From a virus (Duplodnaviria > Heunggongvirae > Uroviricota > Caudoviricetes): a stretch of DNA of 22,661 nt. Location: IMG/VR virus record IMGVR_UViG_2703718836_000001; one strand, 5' to 3'. Positions 2,902 through 13,554 of this stretch are shown one piece after another. Positions within the stretch are counted from its first letter, which is position 1, and each line of letters starts with the position of its first letter. Made by a program: the position numbers and the translations under genes. Below the pieces are notes generated by a model. The model had not been told where the DNA came from and searched no databases. It worked only from the letters and a program-made list of their open reading frames with translations.

Positions 2902-3980
2902 CAGAACGGGTCCTCCTGTACTCTGGCTTTTTTCTTTTTCCGCGCGCCGGGGGCTTCGGGTTCAGGCAGATAAGCATCAGGTGGGCCGACACGGATTTCC
3001 GTCAGGGTGCCGTTCTGGTCCTGAGTAAACGTGACTTCCGAGACAAGCAGTTCGGTATTGTCGAAACCACAGACCGGCTCGAAGACAATCACCCGCTGGT
3101 TGGGCTGCCACAGCGTACCGTTACCCTGTCGCCAGCCCTGCACCACATAGGTGGTTTCATCAGTCCGCGCCGCCCGTTGTCGGGCTTCAAAGTCAGCACG
3201 GGCAATACAGCCTGCCCCCGTAGCCTGCCCTGTCTGCCTGATATACATCGGACGGTAACGGGCAATAAATGCGTCCTCTGTGCGGGCCCGCAGCGCGGTT
3301 GTGGTGACCTCACCGAAATCATCGTCGTTTCCGGCACGCTGCCCCGCCACCTGGTAAACAGAAAACCGCTCCCGGATACTCTTCTCCGTATCGCAGGAAA
3401 GGATGTTTTCCCCAAATACCAGCGCGGTATGTGCCCGCGTTGAGCCAATACCGCCAATCACCAGCCTGCCGTGCGGGTCGTCATAAGCCAGCGCCTGCTG
3501 CTGACCGAGTATTTTGTTAATCACCTCGATCACCGTTTCACCGTGATCAGGCTGGACATCAGGAATAACACCCGACGGCGCACCGCTGTTCACCACCTCA
3601 ATGCCGAAGGGCGCAGCAAGCGCCTGCGCAATCTGTACCAGTGATCGTCCGTTAAACTGTGTCGGTTCGGCTGCACAATCAATCAGGTCAGCGGTCAGAC
3701 TGCGTCCGGCAATACCGGTGCTGACCGAACGGGCATCGTAACGAACGGGCGTCGCCTCCACCCAGCCGGTGATCACCAGCTCATCACCAATCAGCACCTC
3801 CACTTTTGAACCGTTTTTAATGCGCGGCTGAAGCGTGGTAATACCCTCATCTCCCGGCCACTGGCGGGTGATCTCCACACTGAAATCCCGCGCCAGTCGT
3901 TCAACACCGGCACCGATGCGCACCGATGTCCAGCCATTCCACTCCCGGCCATTTACCCGTAGCGTGACGTTATCGTTCAT
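2901..3980 (-). CDS. Baseplate hub protein (Mu P / gp44-like, phage late control D family)
   Basis: 359 aa; N-terminus MNDNVTLRVNGREWNGWTSVRIG typical of the family; follows the DNA circulation gene as in Mu. Confidence 0.75.
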   Translation of the reverse strand: MNDNVTLRVNGREWNGWTSVRIGAGVERLARDFSVEITRQWPGDEGITTLQPRIKNGSKVEVLIGDELVITGWVEATPVRYDARSVSTGIAGRSLTADLIDCAAEPTQFNGRSLVQIAQALAAPFGIEVVNSGAPSGVIPDVQPDHGETVIEVINKILGQQQALAYDDPHGRLVIGGIGSTRAHTALVFGENILSCDTEKSIRERFSVYQVAGQRAGNDDDFGEVTTTALRARTEDAFIARYRPMYIRQTGQATGAGCIARADFEARQRAARTDETTYVVQGWRQGNGTLWQPNQRVIVFEPVCGFDNTELLVSEVTFTQDQNGTLTEIRVGPPDAYLPEPEAPGARKKKKARVQEDPF

Positions 3981-5305
3981 TGCACTGGCACCTTCAGAGG
4001 GATCACCGGCACAAAGCCGGGATGCGTAATGGCATTACGCCGGATAATGTCCGCGTCACGCGCCGCGTTATCAAACCAGGTCGCCGCCAGCACCAGCGCG
4101 GGTAAAACCTCATCCGGCGTGCGCTGAATGATCCGTGCAGACTGTTCAAGGCGCGTGTTGATATCCGCATTCAGATCTGCTTTCACCCGGCGCAGCGCCA
4201 GAAACAGCGCATCACTGGTTGTACGGGACAACTCCTTATCAATTGCCGTATTCAGTGTGTCGCGAATGTCAGTCAGTTCTTCCCACGTCGGCAGGTCAAC
4301 CGTGCTTTTCACCGCCGGTGCATTGTTCAGTGCCGGATGCGTGACGGAAGGCCAGCCAGTGCTCTGCGCGGGTGTTGTTGCCTGCCCCACTGCGGCATTC
4401 TGCATCACCGCGGAAGTTGTTGGCGCAGGCAATCGGGTGACGGCATACGCCGCTTCGCTGATTGCGGTCGTACGAAGGATGCTGGCAACCACGTTACGCT
4501 GCTGCGTCGCCGTGGCGGTGGTTTTACTGTCCGTTTTCCAGACGCCGCGCGGTTGCAGATCGCTGCCGAGGCTGACACCGGAAAGTGTTTTGATCATGGT
4601 GACCAGGTCGCTGGCGTTACCATAAAGGCGTTTCCCGGTACGCCACATTTTCTGCACCTGCTCAACGAAATTTTTGCCTGACGATGGCGGCGGCAGAAGT
4701 ACCGAGATATCCCCCTGCAACAGCCTGGCGGCATCCGATACGGCAGAATCCACCACTTTCATCGCATCAGAAACATACCCAAGCATTGTGCTGGCATTAC
4801 CGACGACGTCGTTCTGCACAAAATCTGCCACGCCATCGATACTGAAACTACTGAAACTGTCACTGATGCAGTCATCCAGTGCAGAACAGGATGACATCAG
4901 CGTCTGCGCCGTCGCCGCACCTGATGTGGGGTAAGAGAGTTCTCCCGCTTCGACAAACTTCAGGTCAAAGCGGACAATACGCCCTTCACTCTTCGATGTG
5001 CTGACCCGAACCTCTCCGTCAACACAGACTTTCAGCTCACCGTAAGTCGGATGGACAAGCGTGCCGGGACCGGGTTTATTCAGCGCGTCAATCAGGCGAT
5101 CGCGCTGGTCAAAGCAGTCATCTCCCACCACATAAGCCGTGATGGACGGGCGGAAAGTGACTTTTCCCAGATCTTCGGTATAGGGTTTGTCGCGGTTCGG
5201 GTATTCGTGCGTTTCCACACGACGACCGGTTCCCGCACTTTCTTCTTCAACCTTAAACGGCACACCGCGAAATGACGCGTCCTGAAGTCTGTCTTTCCAC
5301 GTCAT
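3977..5305 (-). CDS. DNA circulation protein (Mu N / gp43-like)
   Basis: ORF track gives 3977..5347; the internal ATG at 5305 has a GGAG RBS 5 nt upstream and yields N-terminus MTWKDRLQDASFRGVPF, matching the DNA_circ_N pattern. Start is uncertain. Confidence 0.7.
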   Translation of the reverse strand: MTWKDRLQDASFRGVPFKVEEESAGTGRRVETHEYPNRDKPYTEDLGKVTFRPSITAYVVGDDCFDQRDRLIDALNKPGPGTLVHPTYGELKVCVDGEVRVSTSKSEGRIVRFDLKFVEAGELSYPTSGAATAQTLMSSCSALDDCISDSFSSFSIDGVADFVQNDVVGNASTMLGYVSDAMKVVDSAVSDAARLLQGDISVLLPPPSSGKNFVEQVQKMWRTGKRLYGNASDLVTMIKTLSGVSLGSDLQPRGVWKTDSKTTATATQQRNVVASILRTTAISEAAYAVTRLPAPTTSAVMQNAAVGQATTPAQSTGWPSVTHPALNNAPAVKSTVDLPTWEELTDIRDTLNTAIDKELSRTTSDALFLALRRVKADLNADINTRLEQSARIIQRTPDEVLPALVLAATWFDNAARDADIIRRNAITHPGFVPVIPLKVPVQ

Positions 5306-5365
5306 ATAAACTCCGTACATAAAAAATCCCACCGGAGTGGGACTCATTAACAGATTAATTTTTCA

Positions 5366-7201
5366 TTACCTGCCAAAGCGCGTATAGCCAACATCATGGC
5401 TGACATCAAAACCGCTGGATCGCGTTTCCATAACCCGCATACCCGGAGGCGAATTCACAAAAGAGACCTTGATCTCACCATCAACTTTTGGCGCAGAAGC
5501 TTTGTTAATCATGAAGGGATTCGGGCCTGTGGCACCGGAGGCGTTGTTTGACTGAGCCAGATCCACCGCCGGATAAGGTGTGTATCCCCGCGCCGGTATT
5601 CCCGTCCCATAAGCATCATAAGCACCCGCGCCCCACTGCGCAGAGTTAATGGCATCGACCGTGTCACCGGAACTGTCGGTAAACCACTCAATAATTGGCT
5701 TCAGCTTGTCCCACATATCCTGAAACCACTTAACAACCGGCCCCCAGTTATTGATCACCATCCCCAGCGGCGACCAGGCAAAAACTTTCTTAAGGAGTTC
5801 CCGGCCAGCCTCAAAATAAGGACCAATGGTTTCCCAGAGCTTCTTGAAATAAGGTCCGACAACATCCCAGTTAGTGATAATTAATCCCGCAGCCAGGGCT
5901 ATCGCCGTCGCAATCATGCCAATCGGCGTCATCGACATGATCCTGCTGACAATGCTGATGGCACTGCCCACGCCCATCAATCCCAGTTTCAGAATCGCAA
6001 GACCGGCAGCAAGCCCGACGACGCCGCGAATAACCCGGGGATTTTCATCCGCAAACTTCGTGAATTTCTCCCCCAACTCCCCCAGCCATTGCGTGATATT
6101 TTTAGCGTCACCAGAAAATGCGCCGCCAATAGCCGCAAGGCCGTTGGCTGCGGTCCCCGTCATTGCCTCCCACAGGTTGGACAGCGTACCAAGCTGTGCC
6201 TGAACACGTTTATTCAGGCTGGCCTGTTTATTCATCTTCTGCTGGATCTGATCGTAGCCATCCTTTCCTTTATCGATCAGCGCATTGACCACCTGAAGGG
6301 TTTCGGCATCATCACCAAATATTGCCTTAAGTACACCGGTTCGCTTAACGTCGGTCAGTTTTCGCAGCTTTGCCAGTTGCCTGAACATGTTATCAAGACC
6401 GCCAAAACTCCCTTTGCCATCAGTAAAATCGAGCTGTACCCCGAGTTTCTGGCGGGCCATGATTTTATTGACGTCCCTGATTTTCTTAACGCTTAATCCG
6501 GACTGGATAACTTTTCGCAGGGCATTACCTGCCGACTCCCCGTTCATCCCCATCTGATCCATCATGACACTGATGGGGGCAAGACTCTGTGCAGCCTGAA
6601 GACCGTCCTTATTCACCATCTTCAGAACAGAGCTGGTTTTAGTGAAGAAGGACAGCATGTTGGTGTCGTCAACGCCCAGATAAAACGCCTTCTGAATTGT
6701 GTCGAACAGCCCCATCATGTCTTCTGAGGCCGTTCCGGTAGCATCCTGCATCTTTGCGGCAAACTCGGCAGCCGCTTCCGGTGTTTTTTTCAGTTGTACC
6801 GCAAGATAAGCTGTCGCTTTACCCACACCGCCCAGAATGTTTTCTGCCGGGATCCCCTGACGCACCAGCATCTGCATCATGTTCTGGAAATCAGCCGTTG
6901 TACCGGGTAGCTGGTTACCCAGGCCAATAGCCAGTTTATTGATGTCCTGAAAGCTCTTTCCAACCTCGCCGTTCGCATCCATCATGGCGACTTTCAGCCC
7001 GGTGGCGGCGTTTTCCTGATCGGCATAAGATTTCAGGGAAAGCGTCAACCCCGCTGCCAGTCCGCCACCAAGCGCCAGCCCACCCTGTGACGCTTCTTCC
7101 GCCTGGCGTTTAAATCCCCGGATTTTCTTTTGCATTTTCGACAGCGCGGGAGAAAGCCTGTCGACACCGGTGATCAACGCCTTAAGCTCAAATTCAGCCA
7201 T
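5366..7201 (-). CDS. Tail tape measure protein
   Basis: 611 aa, Ala/Gly/Leu-rich, internal hydrophobic segments, immediately downstream of the frameshifted chaperone pair. Confidence 0.85.
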   Translation of the reverse strand: MAEFELKALITGVDRLSPALSKMQKKIRGFKRQAEEASQGGLALGGGLAAGLTLSLKSYADQENAATGLKVAMMDANGEVGKSFQDINKLAIGLGNQLPGTTADFQNMMQMLVRQGIPAENILGGVGKATAYLAVQLKKTPEAAAEFAAKMQDATGTASEDMMGLFDTIQKAFYLGVDDTNMLSFFTKTSSVLKMVNKDGLQAAQSLAPISVMMDQMGMNGESAGNALRKVIQSGLSVKKIRDVNKIMARQKLGVQLDFTDGKGSFGGLDNMFRQLAKLRKLTDVKRTGVLKAIFGDDAETLQVVNALIDKGKDGYDQIQQKMNKQASLNKRVQAQLGTLSNLWEAMTGTAANGLAAIGGAFSGDAKNITQWLGELGEKFTKFADENPRVIRGVVGLAAGLAILKLGLMGVGSAISIVSRIMSMTPIGMIATAIALAAGLIITNWDVVGPYFKKLWETIGPYFEAGRELLKKVFAWSPLGMVINNWGPVVKWFQDMWDKLKPIIEWFTDSSGDTVDAINSAQWGAGAYDAYGTGIPARGYTPYPAVDLAQSNNASGATGPNPFMINKASAPKVDGEIKVSFVNSPPGMRVMETRSSGFDVSHDVGYTRFGR

Positions 7202-7612
7202 GTGTGCGTTTCTCCTGCTCTATCCTGTTTGCCTGACTGACCAGCAAGGGAATTTCACTGATCGGCATATTCAGCAATTCGAAGGGATTAATGCGCCAGT
7301 AGCTGGCGCAGTCAAAGAAGCGATCAGTAAGGTATTCAGCCGTCAGGCCTGGAGGAAAAAACCAGCCACAAGCCACGCCGCTGCATTCAGGTCTGCCGGA
7401 GACATCTGGTCGACAGAGTTTTGCGGCACTTTCGCCAACCGCACAATGTATTTCGATACCACATGCGCCAGAAGTCTGACGGACTCATCCTGATTCATCT
7501 GGTAGGGATACCCCAGCTCGCGGACATCTTTCCCGGTGGGCTCATCAAACTCCAGTACGGAGAGTGTCTCGCCATGAGCGGTAATCGGTTTCTTTAACTC
7601 AAGCTCTTTCAT
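7194..7612 (-). CDS. Tail assembly chaperone, long form made by programmed -1 frameshift
   Basis: ORF 7194..7376 is in the -1 frame relative to 7343..7612 and overlaps it; the overlap holds the slippery heptamer T_TTT_TTC; the extension ends next to the tape measure start. Confidence 0.55.
7343..7612 (-). CDS. Tail assembly chaperone, short form
   Basis: 89 aa between tail tube and tape measure genes; ends ...AGFFLQA. Confidence 0.7.
   Translation of the reverse strand: MKELELKKPITAHGETLSVLEFDEPTGKDVRELGYPYQMNQDESVRLLAHVVSKYIVRLAKVPQNSVDQMSPADLNAAAWLVAGFFLQA
7365..7371 (-). other. Slippery heptamer TTTTTTC (-1 frameshift site)
   Basis: Minus-strand GCT GGT TTT TTC CTC in the 0 frame; after a -1 slip it reads TTT TTT CCT CCA GGC..., giving FFPPGLTAEY, the sequence of the downstream ORF. 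Confidence 0.55.
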
Positions 7613-7968
7613 TACTGGTAATCCCCTTCTTCACCGTGGAACTCAAGATCGACCGTGCCTTCTTCGGCATTATGGTTCGCTTCGCCGTGCAGCCAGGCAG
7701 ACGACAGTACATAGACCTGACCGTTCGCCAGCTCGGCAGTGATGGTCATCTCATCAGACGAGGTGATTTTGCTCACCGGAAAATTCTTCGGCACCTTGAA
7801 GGTCCCTTTAACATAGGGCGCACGGTGAGTTTCCTTGCGGTCCACTGAACCGTCCAGGCCGATGATGTCATCATTGACCGTCCTGTTCATGGGCACCTCA
7901 ATGCCGCCGGTCAGCGATAGCTGCTGACCGTCAATTTTGAAATAACAGGTTCCCCCGATACGGGCCAT
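7612..7968 (-). CDS. Tail tube protein (Mu gp40-like)
   Basis: 118 aa directly downstream of the sheath gene. Confidence 0.8.
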   Translation of the reverse strand: MARIGGTCYFKIDGQQLSLTGGIEVPMNRTVNDDIIGLDGSVDRKETHRAPYVKGTFKVPKNFPVSKITSSDEMTITAELANGQVYVLSSAWLHGEANHNAEEGTVDLEFHGEEGDYQ

Positions 7969-9464
7969 TATGCAGACTCCTCTGAATACTGAAGACGGAA
8001 CTGGTTAACCACGGCAAAGACACGCAACTGGTTAACATAGTCAGGCGGGAACAGCGTGTTCAGGCGGTTCGGATCGCTGGCATCACGCTCCACAACCAGG
8101 TACTGCTTAAACAGTTCGTAGTTTTCCACGATCCCCGCACGCTCAAGCTGACGGTAGGTTGCCAGCAGTTCCCCTTTGATCACCGCCGGGGTGACAATCG
8201 CCTGACCGGGACCAAAGCGGGTACCGTCACTGGCAAGCTTGTGACGCCCGTACTTACTGGTAATGACGGATTTCAGTTTGCGCAGTACATACGCGCTGGT
8301 ATGCAGTGTCTCACTGTCGAGGTAGCTGTTATCCGCAACCCCGTAAGCGTTTTTCCTGTACGTGGTGACATCACGCTGAATGCGCAGTACCCCGCTTTCG
8401 ACATACGCCGTTGCCACGCCATGAGACAGCAGGGTCTGTTGCTCGGTCATCGTGAACCGTTTCCCCTTCGGCGCAGGCAGCATACCCACCAGCTCACCGG
8501 TCTGCGTGGGACGTGCCGGATCGTTGCGAATAAACACCGCTGCGCGGGCGGTACGGCTTGCCGCCAGCTCGTCGGCAGGCGTCTGGGTCTCTTTTTCGTA
8601 CCCCGCCAGGGTAATGTGCTGCTGGTTAAACTGGTCACCTGCGGTCACCAGTTCTGACAGCGTGCCGGTCTTTGCCGTATACACATGACCATACAGCTGA
8701 CGCGCATAGCTCCAGCGACCGCTGGTATCGTTCATCTCGGTCACCAGCGTGTTAACGGAGGCCGTGTCGTTGAACGGCAGGCCGATATAATCAAACGGCT
8801 CATCCGCCATTGCAGCCACCGCGCCGGTGAGAACAGGAGAGCCCGTTCCGGCGGTCCCCGTCGCCACGGCAATCTGTACGCCCGCTGGCAGCACTTCGCC
8901 CCCACCAAAGCCGTAGTAATTGAGGCTGACAGGAATTTCATTCCCGCAAAGCCCCTTATGACGCGCGGTCAGTGTGACCACGCCTGCCGAAGATGAAGCC
9001 GTAAACGGCAGGGCCGGAACGGCATTGATGGCATCTTTGATACTGCTGGCAATCGTCGTGACGTTATCGCCGTTGGTCACCGGAGCCTGCACGCGGGTAC
9101 GTCCCACATAGACATTCACCGTGCCGCTTTCGGTTGCTTCCCCGGTCACCGTCAGCGTAACCGTTGCCGCCGCGCCTGTGGCTTCCGGAACGGCAATCAC
9201 ATACAGCTCGCCAAACGGGTCGGTCTGGCGATAAGCCTCGACCATACGCGCCAGCTGACTTCCCGCACCACAAATCTGGCGTGCATAGTCTGCCGACGGC
9301 ATCAGTACCAGACTGTTGGCAACAATCTCTGCACCGTTATTGGCATGACCAATCAGCAGCGATGCTCCGCTGTCCTGTGCAGTATTCGCCGCCTGGTTAT
9401 CCATTTCCGCATAAAACAGCGGAACCAGCGTATTCGACGGAATGGTGTTAAAGCTTATCGTCAT
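7968..9464 (-). CDS. Contractile tail sheath protein (Mu L / gp39-like)
   Basis: 498 aa; N-terminus MTISFNTIPSNTLVPLFYAEMD; size and position typical for a myovirus sheath. Confidence 0.9.
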   Translation of the reverse strand: MTISFNTIPSNTLVPLFYAEMDNQAANTAQDSGASLLIGHANNGAEIVANSLVLMPSADYARQICGAGSQLARMVEAYRQTDPFGELYVIAVPEATGAAATVTLTVTGEATESGTVNVYVGRTRVQAPVTNGDNVTTIASSIKDAINAVPALPFTASSSAGVVTLTARHKGLCGNEIPVSLNYYGFGGGEVLPAGVQIAVATGTAGTGSPVLTGAVAAMADEPFDYIGLPFNDTASVNTLVTEMNDTSGRWSYARQLYGHVYTAKTGTLSELVTAGDQFNQQHITLAGYEKETQTPADELAASRTARAAVFIRNDPARPTQTGELVGMLPAPKGKRFTMTEQQTLLSHGVATAYVESGVLRIQRDVTTYRKNAYGVADNSYLDSETLHTSAYVLRKLKSVITSKYGRHKLASDGTRFGPGQAIVTPAVIKGELLATYRQLERAGIVENYELFKQYLVVERDASDPNRLNTLFPPDYVNQLRVFAVVNQFRLQYSEESA

Positions 9465-9626: not shown

Positions 9627-10187
9627 TCAGAAAGGAAGGGTTATTTCGGTGTGATGTTCGATATCGCCGTCAGGCCCGTTACCGGGCTCGAGATAATCAA
9701 CATCAATCGCCAGCGTTTGCAGTTCATCCAGACTGTTCAGATCATCCTGCTGGCGGGTATCGTCTTCAGTCAGCTCGCTGATGACCGAAAAATCGAACTG
9801 ATAAATCAGCTCATGACGATTCAGATCCAGCAGCGTGCCGCCGTCATAGGTAATCGGGTTACCGCACGCTTCCGGGTTCCAGCCCAGCAGGGCCTTAAAG
9901 AGCATCTGCCGGACATCGTCCACCACATCATACGAGGCAAACTGACCGCGCTCATCACGTCCGTTACTCAGTATGACAACCACGGAGAAGCCCTCTTTCA
10001 GCTCCTGCCAGTAGTCGGTCTGGCTTTTGTTTTCTCCCGGAGAATCATCCCCCGGTACCACATACGCCGCCGGGAGTCTCAGCTTTCCGACCTCCGGCAG
10101 ATTTTTGAACTGTGCCGCGCCTGCCACCCGGTTTTCAAAATACGGGCAGCGGGCACGCAGCGCAGCAATAACAGGCGTCAGTTTCAT
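9627..10187 (-). CDS. Mu gp37-like virion protein (DUF1834)
   Basis: 186 aa; N-terminus MKLTPVIAALRARCPYFENRVAGAAQF resembles the family; sits between head-tail joining genes and the sheath. Confidence 0.55.
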   Translation of the reverse strand: MKLTPVIAALRARCPYFENRVAGAAQFKNLPEVGKLRLPAAYVVPGDDSPGENKSQTDYWQELKEGFSVVVILSNGRDERGQFASYDVVDDVRQMLFKALLGWNPEACGNPITYDGGTLLDLNRHELIYQFDFSVISELTEDDTRQQDDLNSLDELQTLAIDVDYLEPGNGPDGDIEHHTEITLPF

Positions 10188-10690
10188 CTGTGTCGTCGCT
10201 CCGGCTTCAGTGATTTACGCAATTCCCGCGCCAGAAAATAGCGTGTCCAGCTGCGGTTCTTTTCAAGCGTTTCCACCATGAAGTTATTACGTGGAGCCAG
10301 TCGCCAGCCGCTGCCACCGGATGCACCACGATGATGGCTGCGACGACGCTTTGCCCCTCGCCTCACGCCATAGAACAAAAAAGCCGGATAAAAATCACCG
10401 GTGATACGGCGGTTTCCCTCTCCATTACGCTGGTTAGGGGCTATACGTGCCATAAAACCAGGGCGATGTTTACTGGCTCTGGGTACCATGTAACCAATCG
10501 AACGAGCCAGGCGTCCGGTCTGATAACCGGGGTTTTCACCCGGTGCCGACCGCGCACGGCGCATCACCAGCCGACGGGCATCACGCATATGACGCTGCCC
10601 AATCGTGACAAACGCCCGCCGGACACGGGCGCGGTTAAAGCGCATCTCGGCGGGCTGCTGAACATCAACGTGAAAAAAGGGAGTCGCCAT
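10184..10690 (-). CDS. Head-tail joining / tail completion protein (HK97 gp10-like)
   Basis: 168 aa, Arg-rich, contains the TGRLARSI motif characteristic of the gp10-like family. Confidence 0.55.
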   Translation of the reverse strand: MATPFFHVDVQQPAEMRFNRARVRRAFVTIGQRHMRDARRLVMRRARSAPGENPGYQTGRLARSIGYMVPRASKHRPGFMARIAPNQRNGEGNRRITGDFYPAFLFYGVRRGAKRRRSHHRGASGGSGWRLAPRNNFMVETLEKNRSWTRYFLARELRKSLKPERRHR

Positions 10691-12867: not shown

Positions 12868-13554
12868 TTAGAAGTTCAGATTTTTCAGTGCATTCAGTGC
12901 AGTGCCCACATCCTCAGCGTCGCGCAGGGACAGTGCGCCATAGCCCCCGGCCATGAATGCTTTGGCCTGGGTACGGGAGAGTCCGACATCACGCAGGACT
13001 CTTTCGATTTTTTTTTGTTCGGGGATTTCCCCGCGGGCCAGTGCGTTCTTGACGTCGCTGATCCGCGCCTCGTCGTTAGACGGGAACGTCACCAGGCTGA
13101 CTTCCCAGAGGTCGATTTCTTTCAGCAGAAAGGCTTCTTTGCTCCGGTCGTATTCCCAGTCTTTCAGGACGTACCCAATAGAAAGGCCGGTTAACGAACC
13201 GGCCTTCATGTGTGCATGTGCGCGTTTTGCGAGGGGATCATCATCAATAAGCAACCGTCCCCTGACGTAAAGCCCGACATCGTCTTCCTTCATTTCGGTG
13301 TAAACACCGATGGGCTCATCCATGCGGTGCTGCCAGAGCAGCGCAGGTAACGCTTTTCTGTCACTCCACGCCCGCAGGGAAGCAGCAAATGCCCCGGACA
13401 TCACCACATCATCGTGGCTGTCCTTTACACCAAAGACGGAGCCATACCCTTCAAACTCACCGGAGTCACTGACAGATTTCAGACTCAGCGGTACATCAAG
13501 ACGTTGTTTCGTCTGCATTGGCGTTATCCTTCTGCTTACCGGCTTTACTGCCAT
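12868..13554 (-). CDS. Prohead protease (HK97 family, S78-like)
   Basis: 228 aa; position between portal and capsid; N-terminal region typical of HK97 prohead proteases. The real start may be the internal Met at about 13518. Confidence 0.85.
   Translation of the reverse strand: MAVKPVSRRITPMQTKQRLDVPLSLKSVSDSGEFEGYGSVFGVKDSHDDVVMSGAFAASLRAWSDRKALPALLWQHRMDEPIGVYTEMKEDDVGLYVRGRLLIDDDPLAKRAHAHMKAGSLTGLSIGYVLKDWEYDRSKEAFLLKEIDLWEVSLVTFPSNDEARISDVKNALARGEIPEQKKIERVLRDVGLSRTQAKAFMAGGYGALSLRDAEDVGTALNALKNLNF

What the first reader, a model, noticed from the sequence alone, without database searches (positions are those of the whole stretch)
7194..7612. Programmed -1 ribosomal frameshift in the tail assembly chaperone gene
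Two overlapping ORFs upstream of the tape measure gene are in a 0/-1 frame relationship, and the overlap contains a textbook slippery heptamer T_TTT_TTC (plus 7365-7371). This is the conserved G/GT-type recoding of long-tailed phages, here in a Mu-like contractile tail module. It explains the apparently overlapping 60-aa ORF without invoking a separate gene.
Basis: partly seen in the sequence, partly recalled or inferred. Interest (0 to 1): 0.4.

Follow-up and report, generated by a model that had tools for sequence, protein, structure and literature searches.

The report
Tail chaperone programmed -1 frameshift
A prophage tail-assembly chaperone gene in this E. coli/Shigella SfV-like prophage almost certainly makes a second, longer protein by a programmed -1 ribosomal slip on U_UUU_UUC, at the same site as in phage P2; this is a well-known mechanism that public annotations of this prophage family leave out.

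Summary
On the minus strand an 89-aa ORF (7612-7343, Pfam PF10109 tail assembly chaperone) lies between the tail tube and tape measure genes. A -1 frame ORF overlaps it and runs to 7194.

- All 175 related loci keep the T6 run; 86 of the 87 distinct gene versions keep it in frame (85 GGTTTTTTC, 1 CGTTTTTTC). One contig has the run moved out of phase.
- Twelve diverged phages including P2 (20-83% identity in the extension) have T_TTT_TTN in the same alignment column.
- The preceding codon always ends in T, whatever the amino acid.
- Third-position variation switches from frame 0 to frame -1 at the heptamer.
- The extension always ends overlapping the tape measure start.
- The 60-aa ORF's GTG start is not conserved.

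The predicted product is a 139-aa fusion (...AGFFPPGLTAEY...).

The site is orthologous to P2 E/E+E' (TTTTTTG), not to Mu's own -2 shift. No stimulatory structure sits at canonical spacing. An invariant 8-bp hairpin lies 44 nt downstream and is unexplained.

No public record I inspected annotates the shift. Verdict: ordinary biology, a new member of a known kind, low interest.

The parts
7343..7612 (-). Frame-0 tail assembly chaperone ORF, the counterpart of P2 E and lambda G. It encodes 89 aa (9.96 kDa). Its ATG at 7612-7610 overlaps the tube gene stop (TAATG), and its stop is the TGA at 7345-7343.
   Evidence: Searches give the ORF. It matches Pfam PF10109 Phage_TAC_7 at E = 3.6e-16 and 59.4 bits, against a cut-off of 25. 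It matches phrog_166, a tail family.
7355..7361 (-). Slippery heptamer T_TTT_TTC in X_XXY_YYZ phase. Frame-0 codons are GGT TTT TTC, encoding G84 F85 F86.
   Evidence: The run is kept in frame in 86 of 87 distinct gene versions from 175 related loci. T_TTT_TTN sits in the same alignment column in 13 lineages including P2. Third-position entropy is zero here, whereas only 1 of 49 testable codons in the gene body reaches zero.
7194..7355 (-). The -1 frame extension, the counterpart of P2 E' and lambda T. C7355 is read twice. The segment has 53 codons (PPGLTAEY...EKRTHG) followed by TGA at 7196-7194. The stop overlaps the tape measure ATG (7201-7199) within ATGGCTGA.
   Evidence: The frame is. 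Third-position variation is 39/49 in the -1 phase downstream of the frame-0 stop. The motif [YF]W[RK]xNP.E is conserved in relatives at 20-83% identity. The segment matches phrog_32181 at E = 2e-41, a family built from calls of this stretch as a separate ORF.
7194..7612 (-). Predicted frameshift product: join(7612..7355, 7355..7194) on the minus strand. It has 139 aa (15.8 kDa). Residues M1-F86 come from frame 0 and P87-G139 from frame -1.
   Evidence: Searches give the sequence and mass. Natural alleles in relatives are hard-wired into one ORF by indels at or near the T-run. They give 137-142 aa proteins ending at the same place.
7292..7310 (-). Hairpin UGCGCCAG-CUA-CUGGCGCA, an 8-bp stem with a 3-nt loop. 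It starts 44 nt 3' of the heptamer, inside the E' codons C-A-S-Y-W-R. Its function is unknown. It is listed because it is the only conserved structure in the recoding region.
   Evidence: Folding gives dG -14.2 kcal/mol and z = -4.5. The stem is the same in all 86 versions tallied, apart from one C-to-U change that keeps a G.U pair, while the loop varies. The four synonymous stem sites have entropy 0, 0, 0.1 and 0, against 0.9-1.2 for their neighbours. It has no Rfam match. It is not at the same place in ST64B- or P2-type relatives.
7199..7216 (-). Tape measure gene start: Shine-Dalgarno AGGAG at 7216-7212 and ATG at 7201-7199. It lies inside the last codons of the -1 extension.
   Evidence: Searches give the positions. 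The ATGGCTGA overlap is present in 74 of 86 distinct versions. Synonymous entropy is zero at the GAG inside the Shine-Dalgarno sequence and at the final Gly codon.
7612..7968 (-). Tail tube gene (context; upstream neighbour).
   Evidence: Pfam PF10618 Tail_tube, E = 2.4e-33.
5366..7201 (-). Tape measure gene, 611 aa (context; downstream neighbour).
   Evidence: Pfam PF10145 PhageMin_Tail, E = 1.3e-26. It is annotated as tape measure protein in SfV, SfII and RefSeq E. coli records.

Best explanation
This is a programmed -1 ribosomal frameshift in the tail assembly chaperone gene of an SfV/SfII-like myovirus prophage.

Most ribosomes translate 7612..7346 and stop at UGA, giving the 89-aa chaperone. 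A small fraction slips while tRNA-Phe occupies UUU in the P site and UUC in the A site. Both tRNAs re-pair one base back on U_UUU_UU. The next codon read is CCU, and translation continues in the -1 frame for 53 codons to the UGA at 7196-7194. This gives a 139-aa fusion.

The functional model is inferred from phage lambda G/GT. The shared N-terminal part would coat the tape measure protein. The extension would recruit the tube protein, so that a fixed low ratio of long to short form drives tail assembly. Neither protein would end up in the virion.

The shift is probably unstimulated or weakly stimulated. I expect roughly 0.1-1%, an inference from E. coli reporter data. The fusion's stop lies inside the tape measure start (ATGGCTGA), which allows termination-reinitiation coupling.

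Shown here: the sequence anatomy, the conservation, the selection at the nucleotide level, and the coding signature of the -1 frame. Inferred: the slip itself, its efficiency, and the roles of the two products.
For: Gene context is sheath, tube, chaperone (PF10109), tape measure, DNA-circulation protein. The window is 98% identical to phages SfII, SfI and SfV.

Frames:
- The only in-frame X_XXY_YYZ motif in the gene lies in the overlap, 3 codons before the frame-0 stop.
- Only the -1 frame is open to the tape measure start.

Conservation of the site:
- In 11 genome loci at 75-99% identity, GGTTTTTTC is invariant while flanking synonymous sites vary. The extension is always 49 codons past the frame-0 stop.
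- In 175 loci with 87 distinct versions, 85 have GGTTTTTTC, 1 has CGTTTTTTC, and 1 contig has the T6 run moved out of phase.
- In 12 diverged phages including P2, T_TTT_TT[C/T/G] sits in the same protein alignment column.
- In those phages the preceding codon is GGT, CGT, AAT, AGT, CCT or GAT. The third base is always T although the amino acid changes, even in hosts with 59-63% GC.

Coding evidence:
- Third-position variation is 73/80 in frame 0 upstream of the heptamer and 39/49 in frame -1 downstream.
- Upstream of the heptamer, several relatives have stop codons in the -1 frame. This narrows the possible switch point to about 37 nt containing the heptamer.

Precedent:
- P2 has the same geometry: E 91 aa, E+E' 142 aa, GGT TTT TTG, and an 8-nt overlap with gene T (PMC3091744).
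- In E. coli, U_UU.U_UU.C belongs to the efficient class H_HH.U_UU.Y. It gave 0.12% shifting alone, 0.9% with the IS911 stimulators and 7.6% with the IS3 pseudoknot (PMC4066793).

Natural alleles in relatives are fused into one ORF by T8, by T5, or by a nearby extra G. They give 137-142 aa proteins with the same C-terminus.
Against: - No protein or ribosome-profiling data exist for this element, so the product is predicted and not observed.
- No stimulatory structure lies 5-9 nt downstream, and no conserved upstream Shine-Dalgarno-like element is present.
- On reporter data the bare heptamer gives only about 0.1%. That is well below lambda's roughly 1:30 ratio (PMC5009743).
- The extension has no Pfam family. 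Its homology to P2 E' (PF06528) is not statistically established.
- One contig out of 175 loci has the T6 run in a different phase.
- No public record I inspected annotates the shift.
Confidence: 0.9

Rival explanations
1. Transcriptional slippage. RNA polymerase occasionally adds one extra U on the T6 run. Ordinary translation of the U7 mRNA then gives exactly the same 139-aa protein (...GFFPPG...).
For: - The site is a homopolymer, and some relatives have T7.
- Genomic alleles with T8 or T5 show that the run is slippage-prone at the DNA level.
- One contig keeps T6 but in another phase.
- U7 and A7 runs are under-represented in E. coli genes in all frames. Sharma et al. suggest transcriptional slippage as one possible reason (PMC4066793).
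- The product would be indistinguishable from the ribosomal one by mass spectrometry.
Against: - A run of 6 is short. From my own knowledge, efficient bacterial transcriptional slippage is usually described on runs of about 8-9 or more.
- Selection keeps the phase N-NT TTT TTN. The third base of the preceding codon is always T, while the last base of the motif is free (C, T or G).
- That pattern is what X_XXY_YYZ predicts. Selection on run length alone would equally allow TTT TTT with a free preceding codon.
- No lineage has lengthened the run beyond 7, apart from the single T8 allele that hard-wires the fusion.
Confidence: 0.05
2. The 60-aa ORF (7376..7194) is a separate small gene translated from its own GTG start. 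Some annotations treat it this way, including phage vB_EcoM-689R6 and phrog_32181.
For: An ORF with a GTG start exists. Some pipelines call it as a hypothetical protein.
Against: - There is no Shine-Dalgarno sequence upstream of GTG 7376.
- That codon is NTG only because it overlaps the invariant Trp codon of frame 0. Its first base is a freely varying synonymous site (ATG, CTG, GTG or TTG).
- Several relatives have no ATG, GTG or TTG start before the conserved segment (L009, L012 and L013).
- In several relatives the -1 frame carries stop codons a few codons upstream of the heptamer.
- The upstream -1 frame residues are not conserved.
Confidence: 0.02
3. The -1 ORF is not expressed. It is a decayed remnant, a mutational frameshift in a once single gene, or a chance open frame filling a 141-nt intergenic gap.
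For: Most public annotations leave 7342-7202 as non-coding. Hard-wired single-ORF alleles exist in relatives.
Against: - The two-frame arrangement is conserved across lineages down to 20-33% identity in the extension.
- The -1 frame shows purifying selection, with third-position periodicity and conserved motifs.
- The heptamer is under nucleotide-level selection.
- Frame-0 tails differ in length (3-25 residues), yet the extension always ends at the tape measure start.
Confidence: 0.02
4. Termination-reinitiation. Ribosomes stop at UGA 7345-7343 and restart downstream in the -1 frame.
For: The genes in this operon are tightly coupled, with TAATG and ATGGCTGA overlaps.
Against: The first ATG in the -1 frame after the stop is 26 codons downstream, the Met in ...LLNMPISE.... 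The conserved and selected N-terminal half of the extension (PPGLTAEYLTDRFFDCASYWRINPFELL) would then be untranslated, which contradicts.
Confidence: 0.01

Closest known systems
Phage P2 genes E and E+E' (programmed -1 frameshift at TTTTTTG; Christie et al. 2002 and Xu, Hendrix & Duda 2004, as cited in PMC3091744)
   Same: - The upstream protein belongs to the same Pfam family, PF10109.
- The slip site is in the same alignment column and nucleotide context: GGT TTT TTG in P2, GGT TTT TTC here.
- The sizes match: 91/142 aa in P2, 89/139 aa here.
- The position is the same, directly upstream of the tape measure gene.
- The long form overlaps the tape measure start by the same 8 nt.
- Neither has a stimulatory structure at canonical spacing (PMC3091744).
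   Different: - The last base of the heptamer is C, not G.
- The extension does not match Pfam PF06528 (P2 GpE). A profile-profile comparison is only suggestive (E = 0.011, probability 3.9%).
- Pairwise identity is not significant.
- The surrounding tail module is Mu-like (Mu L-, M- and N-type sheath, tube and DNA-circulation genes), not P2-like.
- There is a clade-specific hairpin 44 nt downstream.
Phage Mu gp41 and its frameshift extension (-2 frameshift; Xu et al. 2004, as cited in PMC5009743 and PMC2628397)
   Same: The chaperone family is the same; the PF10109 description names 'E, or 41 or 14'. The neighbours are of the same types: Mu L sheath, M tube, tape measure and N.
   Different: - In Mu the extension is in the +1/-2 frame and there is no in-frame X_XXY_YYZ motif. 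A G-rich run (CGGGGGCGA) lies where the +1 frame opens, and I take it to be the slip site; this is my reading, not verified.
- Here the +1 frame closes after 2 codons and the shift is -1 on a U-run.
- Mu gp41 is 144 aa, against 89 aa here.
Phage lambda G / GT (-1 frameshift; G to GT ratio about 30:1)
   Same: The logic and gene position are the same. There are two products with a common N-terminus, encoded between the major tail gene and the tape measure gene. The ratio is set by a low-efficiency -1 slip, and neither product is in the virion (PMC5009743).
   Different: I detected no sequence homology. From my own knowledge, the lambda heptamer is different (G_GGA_AAG). Lambda has a non-contractile tail. 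The functional roles here are inferred from lambda and not tested.
SfV-like, ST64B-like and phiP27-like prophage tail modules, and SfV-like Pseudomonas prophages
   Same: The window is a member of this group at 98% nucleotide identity. All members examined carry the same site.
   Different: In the records I inspected the shift is not annotated. The extension is either left as a gap or called as a separate hypothetical protein.

Membership tests
Tail assembly chaperone programmed frameshift (G/GT type, Xu-Hendrix-Duda 2004) | The gene lies between the major tail (tube) gene and the tape measure gene. | tested here: met
   Tube gene (PF10618) at 7612-7968, chaperone at 7343-7612, tape measure gene (PF10145) at 5366-7201, all on the minus strand.
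Tail assembly chaperone programmed frameshift (G/GT type, Xu-Hendrix-Duda 2004) | Two overlapping ORFs in a fixed frame relation. The downstream one has no start site of its own and fills the gap to the tape measure gene. | tested here: met
   The -1 frame is open from 7484 to 7194. There is no Shine-Dalgarno sequence, and the NTG codon is not conserved as a start. The extension ends 8 nt inside the tape measure gene.
Tail assembly chaperone programmed frameshift (G/GT type, Xu-Hendrix-Duda 2004) | A slippery sequence lies in the correct phase within the overlap. | tested here: met
   T_TTT_TTC at 7361-7355 is the only in-frame X_XXY_YYZ motif in the gene.
Tail assembly chaperone programmed frameshift (G/GT type, Xu-Hendrix-Duda 2004) | The slippery site and the two-frame arrangement are conserved in homologues. 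| tested here: met
   86 of 87 distinct versions from 175 loci keep the heptamer in frame. Thirteen diverged lineages have it in the same column. Synonymous entropy is zero at the site. The frame switch shows in the periodicity of variation.
Tail assembly chaperone programmed frameshift (G/GT type, Xu-Hendrix-Duda 2004) | Two proteins sharing an N-terminus are made at a set ratio, and both are needed for tail assembly. | not testable with these tools
   This needs protein detection and genetics. The predicted species are 9.96 and 15.8 kDa.
P2 E / E+E' family | The N-terminal domain is a PF10109 (Phage_TAC_7) member. | tested here: met
   E = 3.6e-16, 59.4 bits against a cut-off of 25, covering residues 4-86.
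P2 E / E+E' family | The slip site is N-NT TTT TTN at the homologous position near the C-terminus of E. | tested here: met
   The MAFFT alignment puts the heptamer-encoded residues of the window and of P2 in the same columns: GGT TTT TTC against GGT TTT TTG.
P2 E / E+E' family | The extension is a PF06528 (Phage_P2_GpE) domain. | tested here: not met
   There is no hit even at E <= 10 for the window's extension or for six relatives. The Bordetella relative reaches only E = 0.011, below the cut-off. hhalign against P2-type extensions gives E = 0.011 and probability 3.9%. The shared [FY]W..P.EL motif is suggestive only.
Mu gp41-type -2 frameshift | The extension lies in the +1/-2 frame and is reached at a G-rich site. 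| tested here: not met
   The +1 frame closes 2 codons past the frame-0 stop. In Mu the +1 frame carries the extension.
Canonical -1 frameshift cassette (heptamer plus stimulatory structure 5-9 nt downstream, or upstream Shine-Dalgarno-like element) | A conserved hairpin or pseudoknot starts 5-9 nt after the heptamer. | tested here: not met
   The first 60 nt fold no better than shuffles (z = +0.5). The alignment fold finds no conserved stem there. The only conserved hairpin starts 44 nt downstream.
Canonical -1 frameshift cassette (heptamer plus stimulatory structure 5-9 nt downstream, or upstream Shine-Dalgarno-like element) | A conserved Shine-Dalgarno-like element lies 6-17 nt upstream. 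| tested here: not met
   No GGAG, GAGG or AGGA is present upstream. The upstream synonymous sites vary freely, with entropy 1.1-1.6 at V82 and A83 (0-based codons 81 and 82).

The most novel reading that the evidence does not exclude
In the SfV-like clade, the invariant 8-bp hairpin 44 nt downstream of the slip site (7310-7292) could be a functional RNA element tied to the recoding event. It might be a long-range, non-canonical modulator of the -1 shift. Alternatively it might act on the ribosome-poor stretch between the chaperone stop and the tape measure start, controlling how much tape measure protein is made relative to sheath and tube. Its stem shows suppressed synonymous variation and its loop varies freely. 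If it raised shifting on a bare U_UUU_UUC from about 0.1% to the percent range at this distance, that would be a stimulator geometry not described for bacteria.
Probability: 0.12. Interest if true: 0.5.

Novelty: new member of a known kind. Interest (0 to 1): 0.18.

Why it matters
Biologically this is the expected tail-chaperone recoding signal, so it does not change understanding.

Its practical value is for annotation.
- This module matches 1,063 of 5,426 complete E. coli genomes, 895 of them over at least 80% of the probe. The sister SfIV-type module adds 211 more.
- Neither RefSeq/PGAP nor the SfV, SfII, SfI, ST64B and phiP27 records I inspected encode the long product.
- The extension is either an unexplained 84-141 nt gap or an orphan hypothetical protein (phrog_32181).

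The comparison also gives two minor but clean evolutionary points.
- The site is orthologous to P2's, although the tail module is Mu-like and Mu itself shifts by -2.
- The T-run is a mutational hot spot that yields hard-wired fusion alleles.

Tried and rejected
Literature
- Xu et al. 2004 and Christie et al. 2002 are not held in the library. I relied on secondary citations, so I cannot say whether SfV was already listed there.
- Full-text searches for SfV, ST64B or TTTTTTC together with the tail frameshift found no explicit description.

Database proteins
- P0001-P0006 looked like full-length fusions. They are singletons from noisy assemblies with indels at varying places, and I rejected them as evidence.

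Locus searches
- The first viral-contig scan returned only near-identical E. coli prophages. I obtained diversity from a tblastn search of the phage collection and from scans with other queries.

Searches with no useful result
- PDB sequence search gave only spurious light-harvesting-complex hits.
- NCBIfam gave no hit.
- Rfam gave no hit.

Structures considered and rejected
- A long-range pairing of the U-run with the tape measure Shine-Dalgarno region, proposed by RNAalifold. The covariation term is -0.74, and it is a U-run pairing with a purine run, which I take to be trivial.
- A stem sequestering the tape measure Shine-Dalgarno sequence (inverted repeat 7140-7155 / 7209-7224; z = -2.0). 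It is not conserved in relatives.
- An outer stem, ACTGATCG/CGATCAGT, around the hairpin. It is not conserved.
- The hairpin as an intrinsic terminator. It was not flagged because it lacks a U-tract. The terminator annotated in SfII lies after the tape measure gene.

Other explanations for the synonymous constraint
- An antisense 107-aa ORF at 7170-7493 (+). It is interrupted by stop codons in most relatives.
Full report
**What is in the sequence**

All genes in this part of the window are on the minus strand. In order they are:
- tail sheath (7968-9464; PF04984, PF17482, PF17481)
- tail tube (7612-7968; PF10618)
- an 89-aa ORF (7343-7612)
- tape measure gene (5366-7201; PF10145)
- a Mu N-like DNA-circulation gene (3977-5347; PF07157)

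The 89-aa ORF matches Pfam PF10109, 'Phage tail assembly chaperone proteins, E, or 41 or 14', at E = 3.6e-16 and 59.4 bits against a cut-off of 25. The window is 98% identical over 4.2 kb to Shigella phages SfII, SfI and SfV and to related E. coli prophages. The probe 7150-7650 matches 1,063 of 5,426 complete E. coli genomes.

**Checking the observation**

The 60-aa ORF at 7194-7376 is in the -1 frame relative to the chaperone ORF. The -1 frame is open from 7484 to the TGA at 7196-7194. The +1 frame closes 2 codons after the frame-0 stop.

The minus strand reads GCT GGT TTT TTC CTC CAG GCC TGA. T_TTT_TTC is therefore in X_XXY_YYZ phase. The product has 139 aa (15.8 kDa), against 89 aa (9.96 kDa) for the short form.

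The bare heptamer is not rare, with 9 copies on both strands against 4.8 expected. In-frame X_XXY_YYZ motifs are rare: 9 in 5,403 codons of the 19 main ORFs. About 0.07 would be expected in the 46-codon overlap. That alone is only moderate evidence.

**Comparative test: close relatives**

In 11 loci from other Enterobacterales (75-99% protein identity), GGTTTTTTC is invariant while flanking synonymous sites vary. The -1 extension is always 49 codons past the frame-0 stop. It always ends inside the tape measure start, as ATGGCTGA, ATGGCTAA or GTGGCTGA.

Pooling 175 loci gave 87 distinct gene versions. Of these, 85 have GGTTTTTTC and 1 has CGTTTTTTC. The remaining one is a single contig, fetched twice, that reads GGGTTTTTTCTCC. 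It keeps T6 and an open -1 frame but has moved the run's phase by compensating indels.

**Comparative test: diverged phages**

A tblastn search with the conceptual fusion found the two halves as two pieces in different frames in diverged phages. The phages examined, together with P2, were:
- Edwardsiella EPP-1
- Pantoea AH07
- Salmonella F1055 and ST64B
- SfIV
- phiP27
- Burkholderia BgVeeders33
- Pseudomonas DVM-2008 and PG1
- Yersinia YeP1
- Bordetella PBb002

All of them have an in-frame T_TTT_TT[C/T/G] and a -1 extension that ends at or within a few bases of the tape measure start.

A protein alignment puts the three heptamer-encoded residues in one column block in all 13 lineages. After that block the frame-0 tails differ in length (3-25 residues) and in sequence. 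The codon before the run is GGT, CGT, AAT, AGT, CCT or GAT. The amino acid changes but the third base is always T, even in loci with 59-63% GC. The last base of the motif is free. This is the signature of selection for X_XXY_YYZ.

**Coding evidence for the extension**

- Across 11 diverse sequences, variable columns by codon position are 29, 18 and 73 of 80 in frame 0 upstream of the heptamer.
- Downstream of the frame-0 stop they are 26/48, 15/49 and 39/49 in the -1 frame. The wobble periodicity therefore jumps frame at the heptamer.
- Upstream of the heptamer the -1 frame has stop codons in several relatives and is not conserved. The switch must occur within about 37 nt containing the heptamer.
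- The GTG that opens the 60-aa ORF is an NTG codon created by the invariant Trp codon of frame 0. Its first base is a freely varying synonymous site, most relatives have CTG, and there is no Shine-Dalgarno sequence. Independent initiation is therefore not supported.
- Among 79 codons where synonymous change can be scored, third-position entropy is zero in only 1 of 49 in the chaperone body. It is zero at F, F and P of the slip site.
- The extension carries a conserved motif, [YF]W[RK]xNP.E...A.RI, across relatives at 20-83% identity.

**Natural fused alleles**

A search with an ST64B-type fusion found database proteins of 137-142 aa that read through. Their DNA shows three kinds of change:
- a T8 run in a Pantoea agglomerans chromosome
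- a T5 run in three independent datasets of an SfIV-like prophage
- an extra G 26 nt after the heptamer in a Shigella flexneri prophage that is listed in about 750 blocks of the collection

All three end 8 nt inside the tape measure gene. They show that joining the two frames at or near this point gives an intact protein, and that the run is a mutational hot spot. By analogy with lambda, where a balanced G to GT ratio is required (PMC5009743), such alleles are probably assembly-defective. That is an inference.

**Mechanism**

The closest experimentally established case is P2 E/E+E'. It has a -1 shift at TTTTTTG, proteins of 91 and 142 aa, and no downstream structure (PMC3091744). The P2 record has GGT TTT TTG and the same 8-nt overlap of E+E' with gene T.

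Mu, whose tail module this otherwise resembles, has its extension in the +1/-2 frame and no in-frame heptamer. The literature describes a -2 shift for Mu (PMC5009743, PMC2628397).

In E. coli reporters, U_UU.U_UU.C is in the efficient class H_HH.U_UU.Y. It gave 0.121% shifting without a stimulator, 0.89% with the IS911 stimulators and 7.6% with the IS3 pseudoknot (PMC4066793).

Here I find no stimulator in the usual places:
- The 60 nt after the heptamer fold no better than shuffles (z = +0.5).
- The alignment fold gives no conserved stem there.
- Upstream synonymous sites vary freely, and there is no Shine-Dalgarno-like motif.

I therefore expect a low-efficiency, largely unstimulated slip. 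The roles of the two products are inferred from lambda (PMC5009743): the N-terminal part on the tape measure protein, the extension recruiting tube protein.

One local observation fits that model. SfIV shares the sheath and tube genes at 98.5% nucleotide identity down to window position 7584, but has a different chaperone (about 43% identity) and a different tape measure gene. The chaperone travels with the tape measure gene, while the FW[RK]xNP.EL motif of the extension is kept.

**An unexplained extra**

An 8-bp GC-rich hairpin, UGCGCCAG-NUA-CUGGCGCA (7310-7292), starts 44 nt after the heptamer. Its dG is -14.2 kcal/mol with z = -4.5.
- The stem is the same in all 86 versions tallied, apart from one C-to-U change that keeps a G.U pair. 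The loop varies.
- The four synonymous stem sites have entropies of 0, 0, 0.1 and 0. The neighbouring sites and the loop site have 0.9-1.2.
- Frame 0 has already ended here, so dual coding does not explain the constraint.
- The antisense ORF 7170-7493 is broken by stop codons in relatives.
- The hairpin is too far downstream to be a classical stimulator.
- It lacks a U-tract, so it does not look like a terminator.
- It has no Rfam match.
- It is not at the same place in ST64B- or P2-type relatives.

I record it as real nucleotide-level constraint of unknown function.

**Rivals**

- Transcriptional slippage would give the identical protein and cannot be excluded by sequence. The short run and the phase-specific selection argue against it.
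- A separate 60-aa gene, a dead remnant and termination-reinitiation are each contradicted by the conservation and periodicity data.

**What is already known, and novelty**

The kind is textbook. For this clade I found no annotation of the shift in the SfV, SfII, SfI, SfIV, ST64B and phiP27 records, in the other phage records I opened, or in RefSeq E. coli.

In the 5.8-billion-protein collection, the extension appears only as stand-alone calls of 30-88 aa with no Pfam domain. In PHROGs it is phrog_32181, of unknown function.

I could not read Xu et al. 2004, which may already list SfV. I therefore rate this a new member of a known kind, of low interest, whose main value is annotation.

Noticed in passing
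window 7292-7310 (minus strand): An 8-bp GC-rich hairpin lies 44 nt downstream of the slip site. Its stem is the same in all 86 versions tallied, apart from one change that keeps a G.U pair, including at four synonymous sites. Its loop varies. It is too far downstream to be a classical frameshift stimulator, and its function is unknown.
   Followed up: partly
L197:852-859; L198, L199 and L200:852-856; L201 and L202 around 896: Relatives carry natural alleles in which the chaperone and its extension are hard-wired into one ORF. The changes are a T8 run in Pantoea agglomerans, a T5 run in an SfIV-like prophage seen in three datasets, and an extra G 26 nt after the heptamer in a Shigella flexneri prophage that is listed in about 750 blocks of the collection. 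These alleles would make only the long form and are probably tail-defective.
   Followed up: partly
L070 and L165 (same viral contig), around 1745-1765: One contig among the 175 loci reads GGGTTTTTTCTCC where the others read GGTTTTTTCCTCC. It keeps T6 and the open -1 frame, but compensating indels have moved the run out of X_XXY_YYZ phase. This is either a sequencing artefact or a weakened site.
   Followed up: no
window about 7584 (mosaic boundary): SfIV-type phages share the sheath and tube genes at 98.5% nucleotide identity down to 28 nt inside the chaperone gene. From there they have a different chaperone (about 43% identity) and a different tape measure gene. The chaperone and the tape measure gene are exchanged as a unit.
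   Followed up: partly
window 7140-7155 / 7209-7224: A 16-nt inverted repeat (81% complementary) could pair the tape measure Shine-Dalgarno sequence (AGGAG, 7216-7212) with codons about 16-20 of the tape measure gene. The fold z-score is only -2.0, and the pairing is not conserved in relatives.
   Followed up: yes
window 5324-5345 (minus strand): A terminator-like hairpin followed by a T-run sits directly after the tape measure gene and overlaps the start of the DNA-circulation gene. It is annotated as a putative rho-independent terminator in the SfII record KC736978.
   Followed up: no
window 10184-10690 (minus strand): This 168-aa ORF contains three in-frame X_XXY_YYZ heptamers (AAACCCC, GGGAAAC, TTTTTTG), more than any other gene in the window. 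I did not examine it for alternative frames.
   Followed up: no
window 12868-13554 (minus strand): An in-frame AAAAAAA lies in the 228-aa ORF upstream of the putative capsid gene. I did not examine it.
   Followed up: no
window 7170-7493 (plus strand): A 107-aa antisense ORF covers the recoding region. It is interrupted by stop codons in most relatives, so it is not a conserved gene.
   Followed up: yes
database proteins P0128, P0130, P0135, P0156, P0157 and P0179; phrog_32181: NCBI names fragments of the ST64B- and phiP27-type extension found at contig ends 'phage tail assembly protein, partial'. The SfV-type extension is called 'hypothetical protein' and forms a PHROG family of unknown function. 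Naming of the same segment is inconsistent.
   Followed up: no
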